The notes: generated by a model from the letters alone, not told the origin. Positions 35,798 to 47,800 are shown, counted from the stretch's first letter. The stretch: 64,000 nt of DNA from the human T2T-CHM13v2.0 reference genome, Homo sapiens (GCF_009914755.1 NC_060931.1), one strand, 5' to 3'. Numbers and translations are program-made.

Positions 35798-35838
35798 TTA
35801 GGTTGGTGCAAATGTAATTGCAGTTTTTGCCATTAAAG
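35798..35838. mobile_element. MADE1 (Hsmar1-derived MITE), left half
   Basis: TA then ttaggttggtgcaaatgtaattgcagtttttgccatt. Confidence 0.9.
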
Positions 35839-38800
35839 ATCAAAAAAGACAAAGAAGGGCATTACATAATGGAAAGGGGTCAATTCAACAAGGAGAAAGA
35901 AGAGCTAACTATCCTAAATATATATGCACCCAATACAGGAGAACCCAGATACATAAAGCAAGTCCTTAGAGACCGGCAAAGAGACTTAGACTTCCACACA
36001 ATAATAATGGGAGACCTTAACATCCCACTGTCAATATTAGATCAATGAGACAGAAGGTTAACAAAGATATCCAGGACTTGAGCTCAGCTCTGCACCAAGT
36101 GGACCTAATAGACATCTACAGAACTCTCCATGCCAAGTCAATAGAGTATACATTCTTCTCAGCACCACATTGCACTTATTCTAAAATTGAACACATAATT
36201 GGAAGTAAAGCACTCCTCAGCAAATGTAAAAGAACAGAAATCACAACAAATCGTCTCTCAGACCACAGTGCAATCAAATTAGAACTCAGGATTAAGAAAC
36301 TCACTCAAAACCGGACAACTACATGGAAACTGAACAACGTGCTCCTGAATGACTACTGGGTACATAACGAAATGAAGGCAGAAATGAAGATGTCCTTTGA
36401 AACCAATGAGAACAAAGACACAGTGTACCAGAATCTCTGGGACACGTTTAAAGCAGTGTGCAGATGAAAATTTATAGCACTAAATGCCCACAAGAGAAAG
36501 CAGGAAAGATCTAAAATTGACACCCTAACATCACAATTAAAAGAACTAGAGAAGCAAGAGCAAACACATTCAAAAGCTAGCAGAAGGCAAGAAATAACTA
36601 AGATCAGAGCAGAACTGAAGGAGATAGAGACACAAAAAACCCTTCAAAAAAATCAATGACTCCAGGAGCTGGTTTTTCGAAAAGAGCAGCAAAATTGATA
36701 GACCACTAGCAAGACTAATAAAGAAGAAAGGAGAGAAGACTCAAATAGACATAATAAAAAATGATAAAGGGGATATCACCACCGATCCCACAGAAATACA
36801 AACTACCATCAGAGAATACTATAAACACCTCTATGCAAATAAACTAGAAAATCTAGAAGAAATGGATAAATTCCTGGACACATACACCCTCCCATGACTA
36901 AACCAGGAAGAAGTTGAATCTCTGAATAGACCAATAACAGGCTGTGAAATTGAGGCAATAATTAATAGCCTACCAACCAAATAAAGTTCAGGACCAGATG
37001 GATTCACAGCCGAATTCTACCAGAGGTACAAAGAGGAGCTGGTACCATTCCTTCTGCAACTATTCCAATGAATAGAAAAAGAGGGAATCCTCCCTAACTC
37101 ATTTTATGAGGTCAGCATCATCCTGATACCCAAGCCTGGCAGAGACACAATAAAAAAAGAGAATTTTAGACCAATATCCCTGATGAACATGGATGCAAAA
37201 ATCCTCAATAAAATACTGGCAAACCAAATCTAGCAGCACATCGAAAAGCTTGTCTACCACGATCAAGTCGGCTTCATCCCTGGGATGCAAGGGTGGTTCA
37301 AGGATATGCAAATCAATAAACGTAATCCATCACATAAACAGATCCAATAACAAAACCGCATGATTATCTCGATGCAGAAAAGGCCTTCAGCAAAATTCAA
37401 CAGCCCTTCATGCTAAAAACTCTTAATAAACTAAGTATTGATGGAATATATACAAAAATAATAAGAGCTATTTATGACAAACCCACAGCCAATATCATAC
37501 TGAATGGGCAAAAACTGGAAGCATTCCCTTTGAAAACTGGCACAAGACAAGGGCGCCCTCTCTCACCACTCCTATTCAACATAGTGGTGGAAGCTCTGGC
37601 TAGGGCAATCAGGCAGGAGAAAGGAATAAAGAGTATTCAATTAGGAAAAGAGGAAGTCAAATTGTCCCTATTTGCAAATGACATGATTGAATATTTAGAA
37701 AACCCCATCATCTCAGCTCAAAACCTCCTTAAGCTGATAAGCAACTTCAGAAAAGCCTCAGGATACAAAATCAATGTGCAAAAATCACAAGCATTCTTAT
37801 ACACCAATAACAGACAAACAGAGAGCCAAATCATGAGTGAACTCCCAGTCACAATTGCTTCAAAGAGAATAAAATACCTAGGAATCCAACTTACAAGGCA
37901 TGTGAAGGACCTCTTCAAGGAGAACTACAAACCACTGCTCAATGAAATAAAAGAGGATACAAAGAAATGGAAGAACATTCCATGCTCATGGGTAGGAAGA
38001 ATCAATATCATGAAAATGGCCATACTGCCCAAGGTAATTTATAGATTCAATGCCATCCCCATCAAACTACCAATGACTTTCTTCACAGAATTGGAGAATA
38101 CTTTAAAGTTCATAGGGAACCAAAAAAGAGCCCGCATTGCCAAGACAATCTAAGCCAAAAGAACAAAGCTGGAGGCATCATGCTACCTGACTTCAAACTA
38201 TACTACAAGGCTACAGTAACCAAAACAGCATGGTACTGGTACCAAAACAGAGACATAAACCAATGGAACAGAACAGAGGCCTCAGAAATAACACCACACA
38301 TCTACAACCATCTGAGCTTTGACAAACCTGACAAAAACAAGAAATGGGGAAAGGATTCCCTACTTAATAAATGGTGCTGGGAAAACTGGCTAGCCATATG
38401 TAGAAAGCTGAAACTGGATCCCTTCCTTGTACCTTATACAAAAATTAATTCAAGATGGATTAAAGACTTACGTGTTAGACCTCATACCACAAAAACCCTA
38501 TAAGAAAACCTAGGCAATACCATTCAGGACATAGGCATGGCCAAGGACTTCAAGTCTAAAACACCAAAAGCAATGGCAACAAAAGCCAAAATTGACAAAT
38601 GGGATCTAATTAAGCTAAAGAGCTTCTGCACAGCAAAAGAAACTACCATCAGAGTGAACAGGCAACCTACAGAATGGGAGAAAATTTTTGCAATCTACCC
38701 ATATGACAAAGGGCTAATATCCAGAATCTACAAATAACTTAAACAAATTTACAAGAAAAAAAAAACCCATCAAAAAGTGGGCAAAGGATAGGAACAGATA

Positions 38801-44800: not shown

Positions 44801-47800
44801 TATGTTGTATCTTTGTTCTCATTGGTTTCAAAGGACATCTTTCTTTCTGCCTTCATTTCGTTATGTACCCAGTAGTCATTCAGGAGCAGGTTGTTCAGTT
44901 TCCATGTAGTTGAGTGGTTTTGAGTGAGTTTCTTAATCCTAAGTTCTAGTTTGATTGCACTGTGGTCTGAGAGACAGTTTGTTATAATTTCTGTTCTTTT
45001 ACATTTGCTGAGGAGTGCTTTACTTCCAACTATGTGGTCAGTTTTGGAATAGGTGTGGTGTGGTGCTGAAAAGAATGTATATTCTGTTGATTTGGGGTGG
45101 AGATTTCTGTAGATGTCTATTAGGTCCACTTGGTGCAGAGCTAAGTTCGATTCCTGGATATCCTTGTTAGCTTTCTGTCTCTTTGATCTGTCTAATGTTG
45201 ACAGTGGGATGTTAAAGTCTCCCATTATTACTGTATGGGAGTCTAAGTCTCTTTTTTTTTTTTTTATTGTCCCCCTGGCAAATCTTTTTTTCTTTTTTCT
45301 TTTTTTTGTATTGATTTATTTATTTTATTGATCATTCTTGGGTGTTTCTCGCAGAGGGGGATTTGGCAGGGTCATAGGACAATAGTGGAGGGAATGTCAG
45401 CAGATAAACAAGTGAACAAAGGTCTCTGGTTTTCCTAGGCAGAGGACCCTGCGGCCTTTCGCAGTGTTTGTGTCCCTGGGTACTTAAGATTAGGGAGTGG
45501 TGATGACTCTTAACGAGCATGCTGCCTTCAAGCATCTGTTTAACAAAGCACATCTTGCACCGCCCTTAATCCATTTAACCCTGAGTGGACACAGCACATG
45601 TTTCAGAGAGCACAGGGTTGGGGGTAAGGTCACAGATCAACAGGATCCCAAGGCAGAAGAATTTTTCTTAGTACAGAACAAAATGAAAAGTCTCCCATGT
45701 CTACTTCTCTCTACACAGACACGGCAACCATCCAATTTCTCAATCTTTTCCCCACCTTTCCCGTCTTTCTATTCCACAAAACCGCCATTGTCATCTTGGC
45801 CCGTTCTCAATGAGCTGTTGGGTACACCTCCCAGACGGGGTCGTGGCCGGGCAGAGGGGCTCCTCAATTCCCAGTAGGGGTGGCTGGGCAGAGGCGCCCC
45901 TCGCCTCCCGGACAGGGCGGCTGGCCGGGCGGGGGGCTGACCCCCCCACCTCCCTCCCGGACGGGGTGGCTGGCTGGGCAGAGGGGCTCCTCACTTCCCA
46001 GTAGGGGCGGCCGGGCAGAGTCGCCCCTCACCTCCCAGACAGGGCGGCTGGCCAGGCAAGGGGCTGACCCCCCCCACCTCCCTCCCGGATGGGGCGGCTG
46101 GCCGGGCGGGGGGCTGACCCCCCCACCTCCCTCCCGGACGGGGCGGCTGGCCGGGCAGAGGGGCTCCTCAATTCCCAGTAGGGGTGGCCGGGCAGAGGCG
46201 CCCCTCGCCTCCCGGACGGGGCGGCTGGCCGGGCAGAGGGGCTCCTCACTTCCCAGTAGGGGCGGCCAGGCAGAGGCGCCCCTCACCTCCCGGACAGGGC
46301 GGCTGGCCGGGCGGGGGGCTGACCCCCCCCACCTCCCTCCCAGACGGGGCGGCTGGCCAGGAAGAGGGGCTCCTCACTTCCCAGTAGGGGCGGCCAGGCA
46401 GAGGCGCCCCTCACCTCCCGTCCGGGAGGCTGGCCGGGTGGGGGGCTGACCCCCCCACCTCCCTCCCGGACGGGGCGGCTGGCCTGGTGGGGGCTGACCC
46501 CCACCTCCCTCCCGGACGGGGTGGCTGCCAGGCGGAGATGCTCCTCACCTCCCAGACCGGGTGGCTGCCGGACGGAGGGGCTCCTCACCTCTCAGACGGG
46601 GCAGTTGCCAGGCAGAGGGTCTCCTCACTTATCAGACGGGGCAGCCGGGCAGAGACACTCCTCACCTCCCAGATGGGGTCGCGGCCGGGCAGAGGCGCTC
46701 CTCACATCCCAGATGGGGCGGCGGGGCAGAGGCGCTCCCCACATCCCAGACGATGGGCGGCCGGGCAGAGACGCTCCTCACTTCCTAGATGGGATGGCTG
46801 GGGGGAAGAGGCGCTCCTCATTTCCTAGATGGGATGGCGGCCGGGCAGAGACGCTCCTCACTTTCCAGACTGGGCAGCCAGGCAGAGGGGCTCCTCACAT
46901 CCCAGACGATGGGCGGCCAGGCAGAGACGCTCCTCACTTCCCAGACGGGGTGGCGGCTGGGCAGAGGCTGCAATCTCCGCTCTTTGGGAGGCCAAGGCAG
47001 GCGGCTGGGAGGTGGTTGTAGCAAGCCGAGATCACGCCACTGAACTCCAGCCTGGGCACCATTGAGCACTGAGTGAACGAGACTCCGTCTGCAATCCCGG
47101 CACCTCGGGAGGCCGAGGCTGGCGGATCACTCGTGGTTAGGAGCTGGAGACCAGCCCGGCCAACACAGCGAAACCCCATCTCCACCAAAAAAATACGAAA
47201 ACCAGTCAGGCGTGGCGGCGCGCGCCTGCAATCGCAGGCACTCGGCAGGCTGAGGCAGGAGAATCAGGCAGGGAGGTTGCAGTGAGCCGAGATGGCAGCA
47301 GTACAGTCCAGCTTTGGCTCGGCATCAGAGGGAATACAGTCCAGCTTTGGCTCAGCATCAGAGGGAGACCATGGAAAGAGAGGGAGAGGGAGACCGTGGG
47401 GAGAGGGAGAGGGAGAGGGAGAGGTCTAAGTCTCTTTGTAGCTTTCTAAGGACTTGATTTATGAATCTGGGTGCTCATGTATTGGGTGCATATATATTTA
47501 GGATAGTTAGCTCTTCTTGTTGAATTGATCCCTTTACCATTATGTAATGGCCTGGTTTGTCTCTTTTGATCTTTGTTGGTTTAAAGTCTGCTTTATCAGA
47601 GACTAGGATTGCAACCCCTGCCTTTTTTTGTTTTCCATTTGCTTGGTAGATCTTCCTCCATCCCTTTATTTTGAGCCTATGTGTGTCTCTGCACGTGAGA
47701 GGGTTTCCTGAGTACAGCACACTGATGGGTCTTGACTCTTTATCCAATTTGCCAGTCTGTGTCTTTTAATTGGAGCATTTAGCACATTTACATTTAAGGT

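What the first reader, a model, noticed from the sequence alone, without database searches (positions are those of the whole stretch)
35835..45240. Tail-to-tail L1 pair shares inactivating and private mutations: a self-homogenising quasi-palindrome
Seen: L1-B (+) and L1-C (-) form inverted arms of about 3.7 kb around a 2.0-kb spacer (39611-41610). They are separate insertions: B sits in a MADE1, C has its own 18-bp TSD, and their 3'UTRs differ in type. Even so, they share more than 12 changes from the L1 consensus as I recall it. These include RT catalytic FADD->FAND (37671-37682 / 43543-43554), the same stop after [11 protein letters not shown] (38501-38503 / 42718-42720), and [80 protein letters not shown] and KDRNR..SKGD. 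These are interleaved with unshared sites (IAKTI vs IAKSI, TEASEIT vs TEP.EIM). Established: ORF2 with a broken FADD motif and a premature stop cannot mobilise in cis. Inference: repeated short-tract ectopic gene conversion between the arms, like palindrome-arm conversion but between two unrelated L1s.
Basis: partly seen in the sequence, partly recalled or inferred. Interest (0 to 1): 0.85.

Follow-up and report, generated by a model that had tools for sequence, protein, structure and literature searches.

The report
Gene conversion between two inverted L1s
Two old LINE-1 copies that landed separately, 2 kb apart and facing each other, have since copied stretches of sequence from one to the other, so both now carry the same inactivating mutations; this is a clean example of a known process.

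Summary
L1-B (+, about 35839-39610, 5'-truncated) and L1-C (-, 41611-49943, full length, split by an SVA-like insert) form 3.65-kb inverted arms around a 2.0-kb spacer. They are 93.8% identical. They are independent insertions: B splits a small terminal-inverted-repeat element, and C has its own 18-bp target-site duplication.

Similarity is mosaic. Background B-C divergence is 8-10.6%. Two tracts, B 37371-38050 and B 38317-38692, differ by only 0.5-4.2% and hold 38 of the 55 shared derived sites. These include D702N in the RT motif FADD and the shared stop codon.

The clustering is not chance: chi-square 112.8, p=1e-20, and 0 of 20000 permutations reach it. In the tracts B and C are sisters (SH-aLRT 100). 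Outside the tracts they are not sisters in the best tree, though the test rejects that only weakly.

No other copy scored in this genome carries the tract haplotypes. One 38-mer with six shared variants occurs only in B and C.

Best explanation: non-allelic gene conversion between the arms, with at least two events of different age. "Self-homogenising palindrome" overstates it, because only about 30% of the arm is clearly converted. This is a new instance of a known process. Ape orthologs, other human assemblies and raw reads could not be checked.

The parts
35798..35838 (.). Left half of a small terminal-inverted-repeat element (MADE1-like; name recalled) that L1-B splits
   Evidence: it is the reverse complement of the right half at 39611-39648.
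35839..39610 (+). L1-B: 5'-truncated LINE-1 (ORF2 from late in the endonuclease domain, 3'UTR, A-rich tail). Ends are good to about 5 bp because of a possible AAAG duplication.
   Evidence: RVT_1 hit on 37338-38153. ORF2 is broken into six or more open pieces.
39611..39648 (.). Right half of the split terminal-inverted-repeat element, directly after B's tail
   Evidence: Because it sits next to B, the spacer has not undergone a net inversion.
39611..41610 (.). 2.0-kb spacer between the arms. It includes the right half of the split element and C's 3' target-site duplication.
41593..41610 (.). Target-site duplication of L1-C, copy on the 3' side (18 bp)
   Evidence: identical to 49944-49961.
41611..45254 (-). 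L1-C, 3' part (poly(A), 3'UTR, most of ORF2): the arm homologous to B
   Evidence: The 792-aa open stretch 42937-45315 aligns to human ORF2p residues 122-904.
45255..47423 (-). SVA-like insertion inside L1-C. The poly(A) end is at 45255 and the hexamer-repeat end at 47423. It is flanked by the 14-bp duplication GTCTAAGTCTCTTT (45241-45254 and 47424-47437).
   Evidence: The SVA name comes from recalled structure and was not tested against a library.
47424..49943 (-). L1-C, 5' part (start of ORF2, ORF1, 5'UTR)
49944..49961 (.). Target-site duplication of L1-C, copy on the 5' side (18 bp)
37371..38050 (+). Conversion tract A in B. Shared sites run 37388-37964. The tract is bounded by a 4-bp indel at 37370 and by discordant sites at 38010 and 38051. 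The left part to 37660 looks older (4.2 discordant per 100 bp); the right part 37661-38050 looks younger (0.5 per 100 bp). It contains FAND at 37671-37682.
   Evidence: (I1, 98%).
43175..43854 (-). Conversion tract A in C, partner of B 37371-38050. It contains FAND at 43543-43554.
38317..38692 (+). Conversion tract B in B: 10 shared derived sites and 3 discordant sites. It contains the shared stop at 38501-38503.
42529..42904 (-). Conversion tract B in C, partner of B 38317-38692. It contains the shared stop at 42718-42720.
38051..38316 (+). Unconverted block between the tracts: 24 discordant sites and no shared derived site
36468..36960 (+). Possible older tract or tracts: 2.6 discordant per 100 bp and 5 shared sites, 3 of them absent from all 21 panel copies (36689, 36740, 36752). 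Not exceptional against the best panel copy.
38775..38835 (+). Possible micro-tract: two shared variants absent from all 69 panel copies (38791, 38812), lying between discordant sites

Best explanation
Two LINE-1 elements inserted independently, tail to tail and 2 kb apart, creating a 3.65-kb imperfect inverted repeat. Later, homology-directed repair on the same chromosome used one arm as template for the other. This is non-allelic gene conversion without crossover. It replaced stretches of about 0.3-0.7 kb, so the donor's private mutations now sit in both arms. These include D702N in the reverse-transcriptase FADD motif and a premature stop.

At least two events of different age are needed:
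- an older one covering at least B 37371-37660;
- one or two younger ones covering 37661-38050 and 38317-38692.

Shown here: independent insertion, the mosaic of shared and private sites, genome-wide exclusivity of the tract haplotypes, and no net inversion of the spacer.

Inferred: the repair mechanism, the number and age of events, and the direction. Variant density tentatively suggests C was donor for the young tracts and B for the older one.
For: Independent origin.
- B splits a terminal-inverted-repeat element, and C has an exact 18-bp target-site duplication.
- The two 3' ends have different best relatives. B's best match is 92%, C's is 95-96%, and neither appears among the other's 40 scored matches.

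Mosaic. Sites were classified against 71 other L1 copies, with 19-69 informative per site. There are 55 shared-derived and 208 discordant events. By segment, shared/discordant counts are:
- 35978-36467: 3/47
- 36961-37348: 2/32
- 37349-37660: 18/13
- 37661-38050: 11/2
- 38051-38316: 0/24
- 38317-38692: 10/3
- 39101-39609: 1/54

Clustering statistics.
- Chi-square 112.8, 8 df, p=1e-20.
- Maximal-segment score 22.5, against a permutation maximum of 12.5 (0 of 20000 reach it).
- 51 runs against 87.9 +/- 5.3 expected (0 of 20000 are as low).

Controls.
- Runs z is -6.65 for B-C. The median is -0.50 over the other 252 of 253 panel pairs, and only pairs with the mosaic copy L014 are comparable.
- Segmenting on mismatches alone gives 3 segments, against 1 in each of 30 shuffles. 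A lighter penalty recovers the same tracts.

Trees.
- In the tracts (42 rows, 1078 columns), B and C are sisters with SH-aLRT 100, stem 0.036 and tips 0.0066 and 0.0092.
- Outside the tracts they are not sisters. B's nearest copies are L037/L038 and C's nearest is the window's other L1.

Exclusivity.
- 732-bp query: C 98%, the other 38 scored copies all 94% (40 of 5953 candidates scored).
- 181-bp query: C 99%, the rest 96% or less (40 of 1308 scored).
- Six of the 96% copies carry only 1-3 of the 8 shared variants in 38461-38580.
- No panel copy carries more than 6 of the 39 tract variants.
- A 38-mer with 6 shared variants, at up to 2 mismatches, matches only B and C.

Nature of the shared sites. 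Of the 52 shared sites in the first classification, against the 28-copy panel, 48 are not at CpG, and many are transversions. Parallel mutation is therefore unlikely.

More than one event. 13/312 against 2/390 later differences in adjacent sub-tracts, Fisher p=0.001.

Known background. Non-allelic gene conversion between transposable elements, elevated for Alu copies under 10 kb apart, is reviewed in PMC6598467 (section 4 read). Intrachromosomal L1 gene conversion and repair of a break in a LINE by other LINEs are cited in PMC1920257 (passages read).
Against: - No ortholog from another species and no second human assembly could be examined, so the pre-conversion state was never seen directly.
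- The AU tests against a B+C clade outside the tracts are weak: p=0.112 for the 3' part and p=0.0499 for the 5' part.
- A strict penalty on mismatches alone splits the arm into only 2 segments. The signal rests on combining shared-derived with discordant sites.
- The count of shared sites alone (55) is matched by same-subfamily panel pairs.
- Genome searches scored only 40 candidates each, so exclusivity over the long queries is not exhaustive. It is strongest for the one 38-mer.
- Several shared states in 37388-37448 also occur in 1-12 of 40-41 panel copies. Some may be recurrent or lineage states rather than donor-private mutations.
- There is no GC bias among tract variants: 17 weak-to-strong against 15 strong-to-weak, compared with 80 against 66 for private variants, p=1.0.
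- Direction could not be fixed from diagnostic sites.
Confidence: 0.87

Rival explanations
1. Minor subfamily or common source: B and C were copied from one rare source element, mobilised in trans because it was already defective, so the shared variants are inherited.
For: Same-subfamily panel pairs share as many sites (53-57) as B and C do. Some shared states recur in the panel.
Against: Inherited variants should be spread evenly along the element. Instead they are clustered (chi-square p=1e-20, runs z -6.65), and blocks of 266-509 bp have 0-1 shared sites against 24-54 discordant sites. No third copy with the haplotype was found. The 3' ends have different nearest relatives. This rival also needs two trans-mobilised insertions landing 2 kb apart.
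Confidence: 0.03
2. Inverted duplication: one L1 and its surroundings were duplicated in inverted orientation, and the copies then diverged.
For: Inverted arms with a spacer are the usual product of palindromic duplication.
Against: Homology stops exactly at the L1 ends. B is 5'-truncated inside a split terminal-inverted-repeat element, while C is full length with its own 18-bp target-site duplication. Divergence is not uniform. B and C are not sisters outside the tracts.
Confidence: 0.02
3. Assembly or polishing artefact: reads from one arm were used to correct the other, which would create false shared variants.
For: Not tested. The arms are repeats of a very abundant family.
Against: Inference only. 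The arms differ by 6% overall and sit 2 kb apart, so long reads span both arms together with unique flanks. The tracts keep 2-13 private differences. They also differ from each other in residual divergence, which looks like age rather than overwriting.
Confidence: 0.04
4. Third-party donor: a third L1 elsewhere converted both B and C in the same stretches.
For: Ectopic conversion among dispersed L1s is known (PMC1920257 passages).
Against: No candidate donor exists among the scored genomic copies, and the 38-mer is limited to B and C. It needs two matching events instead of one.
Confidence: 0.03

Closest known systems
Non-allelic (interlocus, ectopic) gene conversion between dispersed transposable elements, for example neighbouring Alu copies
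   Same: Independent insertions of one repeat family lie a few kb apart. They show mosaic tracts of shared variants, disagreement between the tract tree and the flank tree, and no crossover. The review PMC6598467 (section 4) reports elevated conversion between Alu copies under 10 kb apart.
   Different: Here the partners are two L1 elements with 3.65 kb of homology in inverted orientation. The tracts are 0.3-0.7 kb, longer than a whole Alu. The converted sequence carries inactivating ORF2 lesions. The primary Alu paper (Aleshin and Zhi 2010) is not held, so its orientation results were not seen.
Arm-to-arm gene conversion in sex-chromosome palindromes (human Y P1-P8, X palindromes)
   Same: Inverted arms surround a spacer, with intrachromosomal conversion between the arms (abstracts of PMC3723533, PMC8600007 and PMC8981503 seen in the listing).
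   Different: Those arms arose by duplication, are 9 kb to 1.45 Mb long (size recalled), and stay above 99-99.9% identical along their whole length, with GC-biased conversion. Here the arms are independent insertions, 93.8% identical, converted over about 30% of their length, and show no GC bias.
L1-L1 gene conversion and double-strand-break repair using endogenous LINEs (Tremblay et al. 2000; Sen et al. 2007)
   Same: One L1 copy serves as repair template for another, including within a chromosome (PMC1920257 passages).
   Different: Those cases are experimental breaks or single chimeric insertions. This is an evolutionary record of at least two events between one fixed neighbouring pair.
Twin-priming L1 inversion
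   Same: L1 sequence lies in both orientations at one locus.
   Different: Twin priming gives one insertion with one target-site duplication and adjacent, non-overlapping L1 segments (recalled). Here both arms hold the same L1 region including the 3' end and tail, each has its own flanks, and 2 kb of non-L1 DNA lies between them.

Membership tests
Non-allelic gene conversion between paralogous repeats | The partners are non-allelic and of independent origin | tested here: met
   Split terminal-inverted-repeat element around B and an 18-bp target-site duplication around C. The 3' ends have different nearest relatives.
Non-allelic gene conversion between paralogous repeats | Discrete tracts of high identity flanked by normally diverged sequence | tested here: met
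   0.5-0.8 discordant sites per 100 bp in 37661-38050 and 38317-38692, against 8.2-10.6 in the flanks. Segmentation agrees. 0 of 20000 permutations reach the observed score.
Non-allelic gene conversion between paralogous repeats | Tract and flanks give different trees, and the shared derived variants are absent from other family members | tested here: met
   B and C are sisters at SH-aLRT 100 in the tracts and not sisters outside, though the AU p-values are only 0.11 and 0.05. Exclusivity is shown.
Non-allelic gene conversion between paralogous repeats | No associated crossover: the flanks keep their original arrangement | tested here: met
   The right half of the split element still abuts B's tail, and C's target-site duplication still abuts C's tail, so the spacer has no net inversion.
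Non-allelic gene conversion between paralogous repeats | The pre-conversion state is seen in an outgroup or in other haplotypes | not testable with these tools
Palindrome with concerted arm evolution (Y/X type) | Arm-to-arm identity above 99% along the whole arm, maintained by frequent conversion | tested here: not met
   93.8% overall. Only about 1.06 kb of 3.65 kb lies in clear tracts.
Palindrome with concerted arm evolution (Y/X type) | The arms were created by duplication of one sequence | tested here: not met
   The insertion flanks are independent.
LINE-1 (L1) retrotransposon | ORF2 with an endonuclease domain and an RVT_1 reverse-transcriptase domain homologous to human ORF2p | tested here: met
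   C 42937-45315 matches 8uw3_A residues 122-904 at E=0. Pfam gives RVT_1 at 2.5e-37 and Exo_endo_phos at 4.1e-06. B 37338-38153 gives RVT_1 at 3.8e-23.
Named L1PA subfamily (L1PA4-7) | Diagnostic positions of a Dfam or Repbase consensus | not tested
   No repeat-consensus library was available. Only relative divergence was measured: tips are 0.048-0.061 for B and 0.033-0.037 for C outside the tracts.
Twin-priming inversion | One target-site duplication around both segments, with the segments covering adjacent, non-overlapping parts of L1 | tested here: not met
   Both arms cover the same 3.65 kb including the 3' end. The flanks are separate and a 2-kb spacer lies between them.

The most novel reading that the evidence does not exclude
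Two unrelated L1 insertions have behaved for many millions of years as a small, newly formed autosomal palindrome. They exchanged sequence repeatedly and in both directions: B to C in the older tract and C to B in the younger ones. [quoted passage not shown] The youngest tracts differ at 5 of 766 bases, so they may have arisen in the human lineage or may still vary among people. If neighbouring inverted repeat pairs commonly behave this way, divergence-based ages and subfamily calls of many old L1s would be locally wrong.
Probability: 0.25. Interest if true: 0.55.

Novelty: new member of a known kind. Interest (0 to 1): 0.35.

Why it matters
This is a well-bounded natural record of non-allelic gene conversion between two dispersed repeats. 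Their independent origin is proved by their flanks, and the tracts, their boundaries and their relative ages can all be read from one haplotype.

It shows that inactivating lesions shared between L1 copies need not come from a shared source. It also shows that local identity between neighbouring old L1s can mislead age and subfamily estimates.

The locus gives a sharp test now that complete ape and human pangenome assemblies exist: which arm changed, when, and whether the change is fixed. The process itself is established, so the value is as an example and a test case, not as a new mechanism.

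Tried and rejected
- **Direction from subfamily-diagnostic sites.** Only 5 sites separate the B-like panel from the C-like panel, and none lies in a tract, so there is no answer.
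- **Direction from variant density.**
  - In clearly unconverted sequence, private substitutions run at 5.87% for B and 2.90% for C.
  - The young tracts hold 21 shared sites against 22.2 expected at C's rate and 44.9 at B's rate (P=5e-5).
  - The older left tract has 5.86%, like B.
  - B's excess is uneven along the element, so I treat this only as a lead.
- **GC-biased conversion.** No signal.
- **PRDM9-like 13-mer (motif recalled) in 35800-45300.** None on either strand.
- **Mismatch-only change-point analysis with a strict penalty.** Only 2 segments. With penalty ln(n) it gives 3, and with 0.75 ln(n) it gives 10 that agree with the site-class map.
- **First multiple alignment.** It included non-L1 flanks and was too noisy, so I redid it on trimmed sequences.
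- **Dropped row.** L007 was dropped from the site classification from then on, because it aligned badly (about 640 mismatches to other copies).
- **Exclusive-variant count.**
  - B-C ranks second of 2194 pairs, at 4.41 per kb.
  - First is L045/L047, a near-identical pair on one contig.
- **Raw shared-site count as a test.** Rejected, because same-subfamily pairs score as high.
- **Literature.**
  - Six full-text searches turned up no paper on this locus.
  - None turned up a paper on conversion between a neighbouring inverted L1 pair.
  - I examined only listings plus the passages named above, and subscription papers are not held, so this is not proof of absence.
  - Aleshin and Zhi 2010 is not held.

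Full report
**1. What is there**

The window (human chr7, T2T-CHM13, per the hub note) holds two LINE-1 elements in opposite orientation.

- L1-B lies on the + strand at about 35839-39610. It is 5'-truncated late in the endonuclease part of ORF2 and ends in an A-rich tail.
- L1-C lies on the - strand at 41611-49943 and is full length.
- C is interrupted at 45255-47423 by a GC-rich insert. It has a poly(A) end, a hexamer-repeat end and a 14-bp duplication of L1 sequence on both sides (45241-45254 and 47424-47437). I read it as an SVA from recalled structure.

The repeat finder reports six collinear inverted blocks, 92-98% complementary. blastn aligns B 35978-39609 with C 45254-41604 at 93.793% over 3657 columns (196 mismatches, 16 gap openings). 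The first 150 bases of B match C beyond the insert at 86.7%. The spacer is 39611-41610, 2.0 kb.

Both arms are L1 ORF2:
- C 42937-45315 aligns to residues 122-904 of the solved human ORF2p 8uw3_A at E=0.
- Pfam finds RVT_1 in both arms.

**2. Independent insertions**

- B is flanked directly by two halves of a small element whose ends are reverse complements of each other (35798-35838 and 39611-39648). The name MADE1 is recalled. B's own target duplication is at most a few A-rich bases and is ambiguous.
- C is flanked by an exact 18-bp direct repeat at 41593-41610 and 49944-49961.
- The right half of the split element still abuts B, and C's duplication still abuts C's tail. The spacer therefore has no net inversion.

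An inverted duplication of one L1, or a twin-priming product, does not fit these flanks.

**3. The shared lesions**

Both arms read F-A-N-D where the panel copies and human ORF2p read F-A-D-D. By the alignment the changed residue is D702. Both arms also have a stop at B 38501-38503 and C 42718-42720.

Neither change is at a CpG, and the stop is a transversion.

**4. Comparison set**

The window's own genome could be searched. I collected the following copies:
- 28 that best match B 37371-38102;
- 29 that best match B's 3' end;
- 8 that best match C's 3' end;
- the window's own third L1 at 553-3373;
- 6 that best match B 38440-38620.

Trimmed sequences were aligned. L007 aligned badly and was dropped, which left 71 copies, with 19-69 informative per site.

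**5. The mosaic**

Each site where B or C departs from the panel majority was classed as shared (B=C) or discordant. After collapsing indel columns there are 55 shared and 208 discordant events.

| B segment | Shared | Discordant |
|---|---|---|
| 35978-36467 | 3 | 47 |
| 36468-36960 | 5 | 13 |
| 36961-37348 | 2 | 32 |
| 37349-37660 | 18 | 13 |
| 37661-38050 | 11 | 2 |
| 38051-38316 | 0 | 24 |
| 38317-38692 | 10 | 3 |
| 38693-39100 | 5 | 20 |
| 39101-39609 | 1 | 54 |

- Heterogeneity chi-square is 112.8 (8 df, p=1e-20).
- The maximal-segment score is 22.5, against at most 12.5 in 20000 permutations.
- There are 51 runs, against 87.9 +/- 5.3 expected.
- Segmenting on B-C mismatches alone gives 3 segments at penalty ln(n), while 30 shuffles always give 1.
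- At a lighter penalty the same tracts appear: 37360-38049 at 1.7% and 38320-38689 at 0.8%. A stricter penalty finds only 2 segments.

**6. Is this just a subfamily?**

By count alone it could be. Panel pairs from one subfamily cluster also share 53-57 sites. Three things separate B-C from those pairs.

*Clustering.* The runs z is -6.65 for B-C, against a median of -0.50 for the other 252 of 253 pairs. Only pairs with L014, itself a mosaic, are comparable.

*Trees.*
- In the tracts (42 rows, 1078 columns), B and C are sisters with SH-aLRT 100, a stem of 0.036 and tips of 0.0066 and 0.0092.
- Outside the tracts they are not sisters in the best tree. B's nearest copies are L037/L038 and C's nearest is the window's other L1.
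- The AU tests against forcing them together are weak: p=0.112 for the 3' part and p=0.0499 for the 5' part.

*Exclusivity.*
- For the 732-bp tract query, C scores 98% and the other 38 scored copies all score 94% (40 of 5953 candidates scored).
- For the 181-bp query, C scores 99% and the rest 96% or less (40 of 1308 scored).
- Six of those 96% copies each hold only 1-3 of the 8 shared variants in 38461-38580.
- No panel copy holds more than 6 of the 39 tract variants.
- A 38-mer with six shared variants matches only B and C at up to 2 mismatches.

By contrast, for the 3' 910 bases, B's best genomic match is 92% and C's is 95-96%. Neither arm is in the other's scored list.

**7. Explanation**

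Non-allelic gene conversion between the arms explains all of this. The shared variants of a tract are the donor's private mutations at the time of the event. The few discordant sites inside a tract arose later.

- Adjacent sub-tracts differ in later divergence, 13/312 against 2/390 (Fisher p=0.001). A 266-bp unconverted block separates the second tract. So at least two events are needed.
- Intermediate stretches hold a few variants absent from all panel copies: 36468-36960, and the pair 38791 and 38812. They hint at older or shorter events but are not secure.
- The longest perfectly identical run is 233 bp, at 37777-38009.

Ages are inference from recalled rates. At about 0.1-0.17% per million years per lineage, the young tracts (0.65% pairwise) would be a few million years old. 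The arms themselves (tips of 0.03-0.06) would be tens of millions of years old.

**8. What stays open**

- Direction. Diagnostic sites do not help. Variant density hints that C gave the young tracts and B the older one, but B's private load is uneven.
- No GC bias and no PRDM9-like motif were seen.
- Raw reads, other human assemblies and ape orthologs were not available. The artefact alternative and the timing therefore rest on argument, not test.

**9. Comparison with what is known**

Conversion between dispersed repeats is established. The review PMC6598467 (section 4 read) describes mosaic Alu copies and elevated conversion between Alu copies under 10 kb apart. Passages of PMC1920257 describe an intrachromosomal L1 conversion and cite repair of a LINE break from other LINEs.

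Sex-chromosome palindromes keep above 99% arm identity by conversion (abstracts in the listing). This locus works in the same way but fails the defining features of that class: 93.8% identity, partial tracts, and arms not made by duplication.

Six full-text searches gave no paper on this locus or on a neighbouring inverted L1 pair. I saw only listings and the passages named, so this is not proof of absence.

**10. Verdict**

This is a new instance of a known process, of modest interest. It is most useful as a sharply testable case in complete ape and human pangenome assemblies.

Noticed in passing
window 45255-47423 (- strand): A GC-rich, VNTR-bearing insert with a poly(A) end and a hexamer-repeat end splits L1-C. 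It is flanked by a 14-bp duplication of L1 sequence (45241-45254 and 47424-47437) and looks like an SVA. It cuts the arm homology on the outer side.
   Followed up: partly
window 553-3373 (+ strand): A third L1 in the window is the best genome-wide match of C's 3' 912 bases (96%) and C's nearest row in the non-tract tree (path 0.052). The margin over other copies is small. The pair is not among the 12 top pairs listed for exclusive shared variants.
   Followed up: partly
L014 (G000:C5:81515728-81519459): This L1 copy shows clustering of shared variants with several younger-looking panel copies, with runs z down to -6.90. It may be another mosaic, from conversion or from two joined insertions.
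   Followed up: no
L045 and L047 (G000:C1:143.67 Mb and 148.44 Mb): These two L1 copies on one contig are nearly identical (18 mismatches in 1742 bases, 10 exclusive shared variants). Most likely they are part of a segmental duplication.
   Followed up: no
L022 and L030 (G000:C12:13270809-13271540 + and 13273599-13274329 -): Two L1 pieces lie in opposite orientation under 3 kb apart on another chromosome, and both were among the best matches to B. They do not group together in the tract tree.
   Followed up: no
L022 and L028 (G000:C12 and G000:C1): This pair on different contigs has 77 shared against 29 discordant sites and is sister at SH-aLRT 98. They belong to a subcluster of younger-looking copies within the panel (L005, L010, L016, L020, L022, L026, L028).
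   Followed up: no
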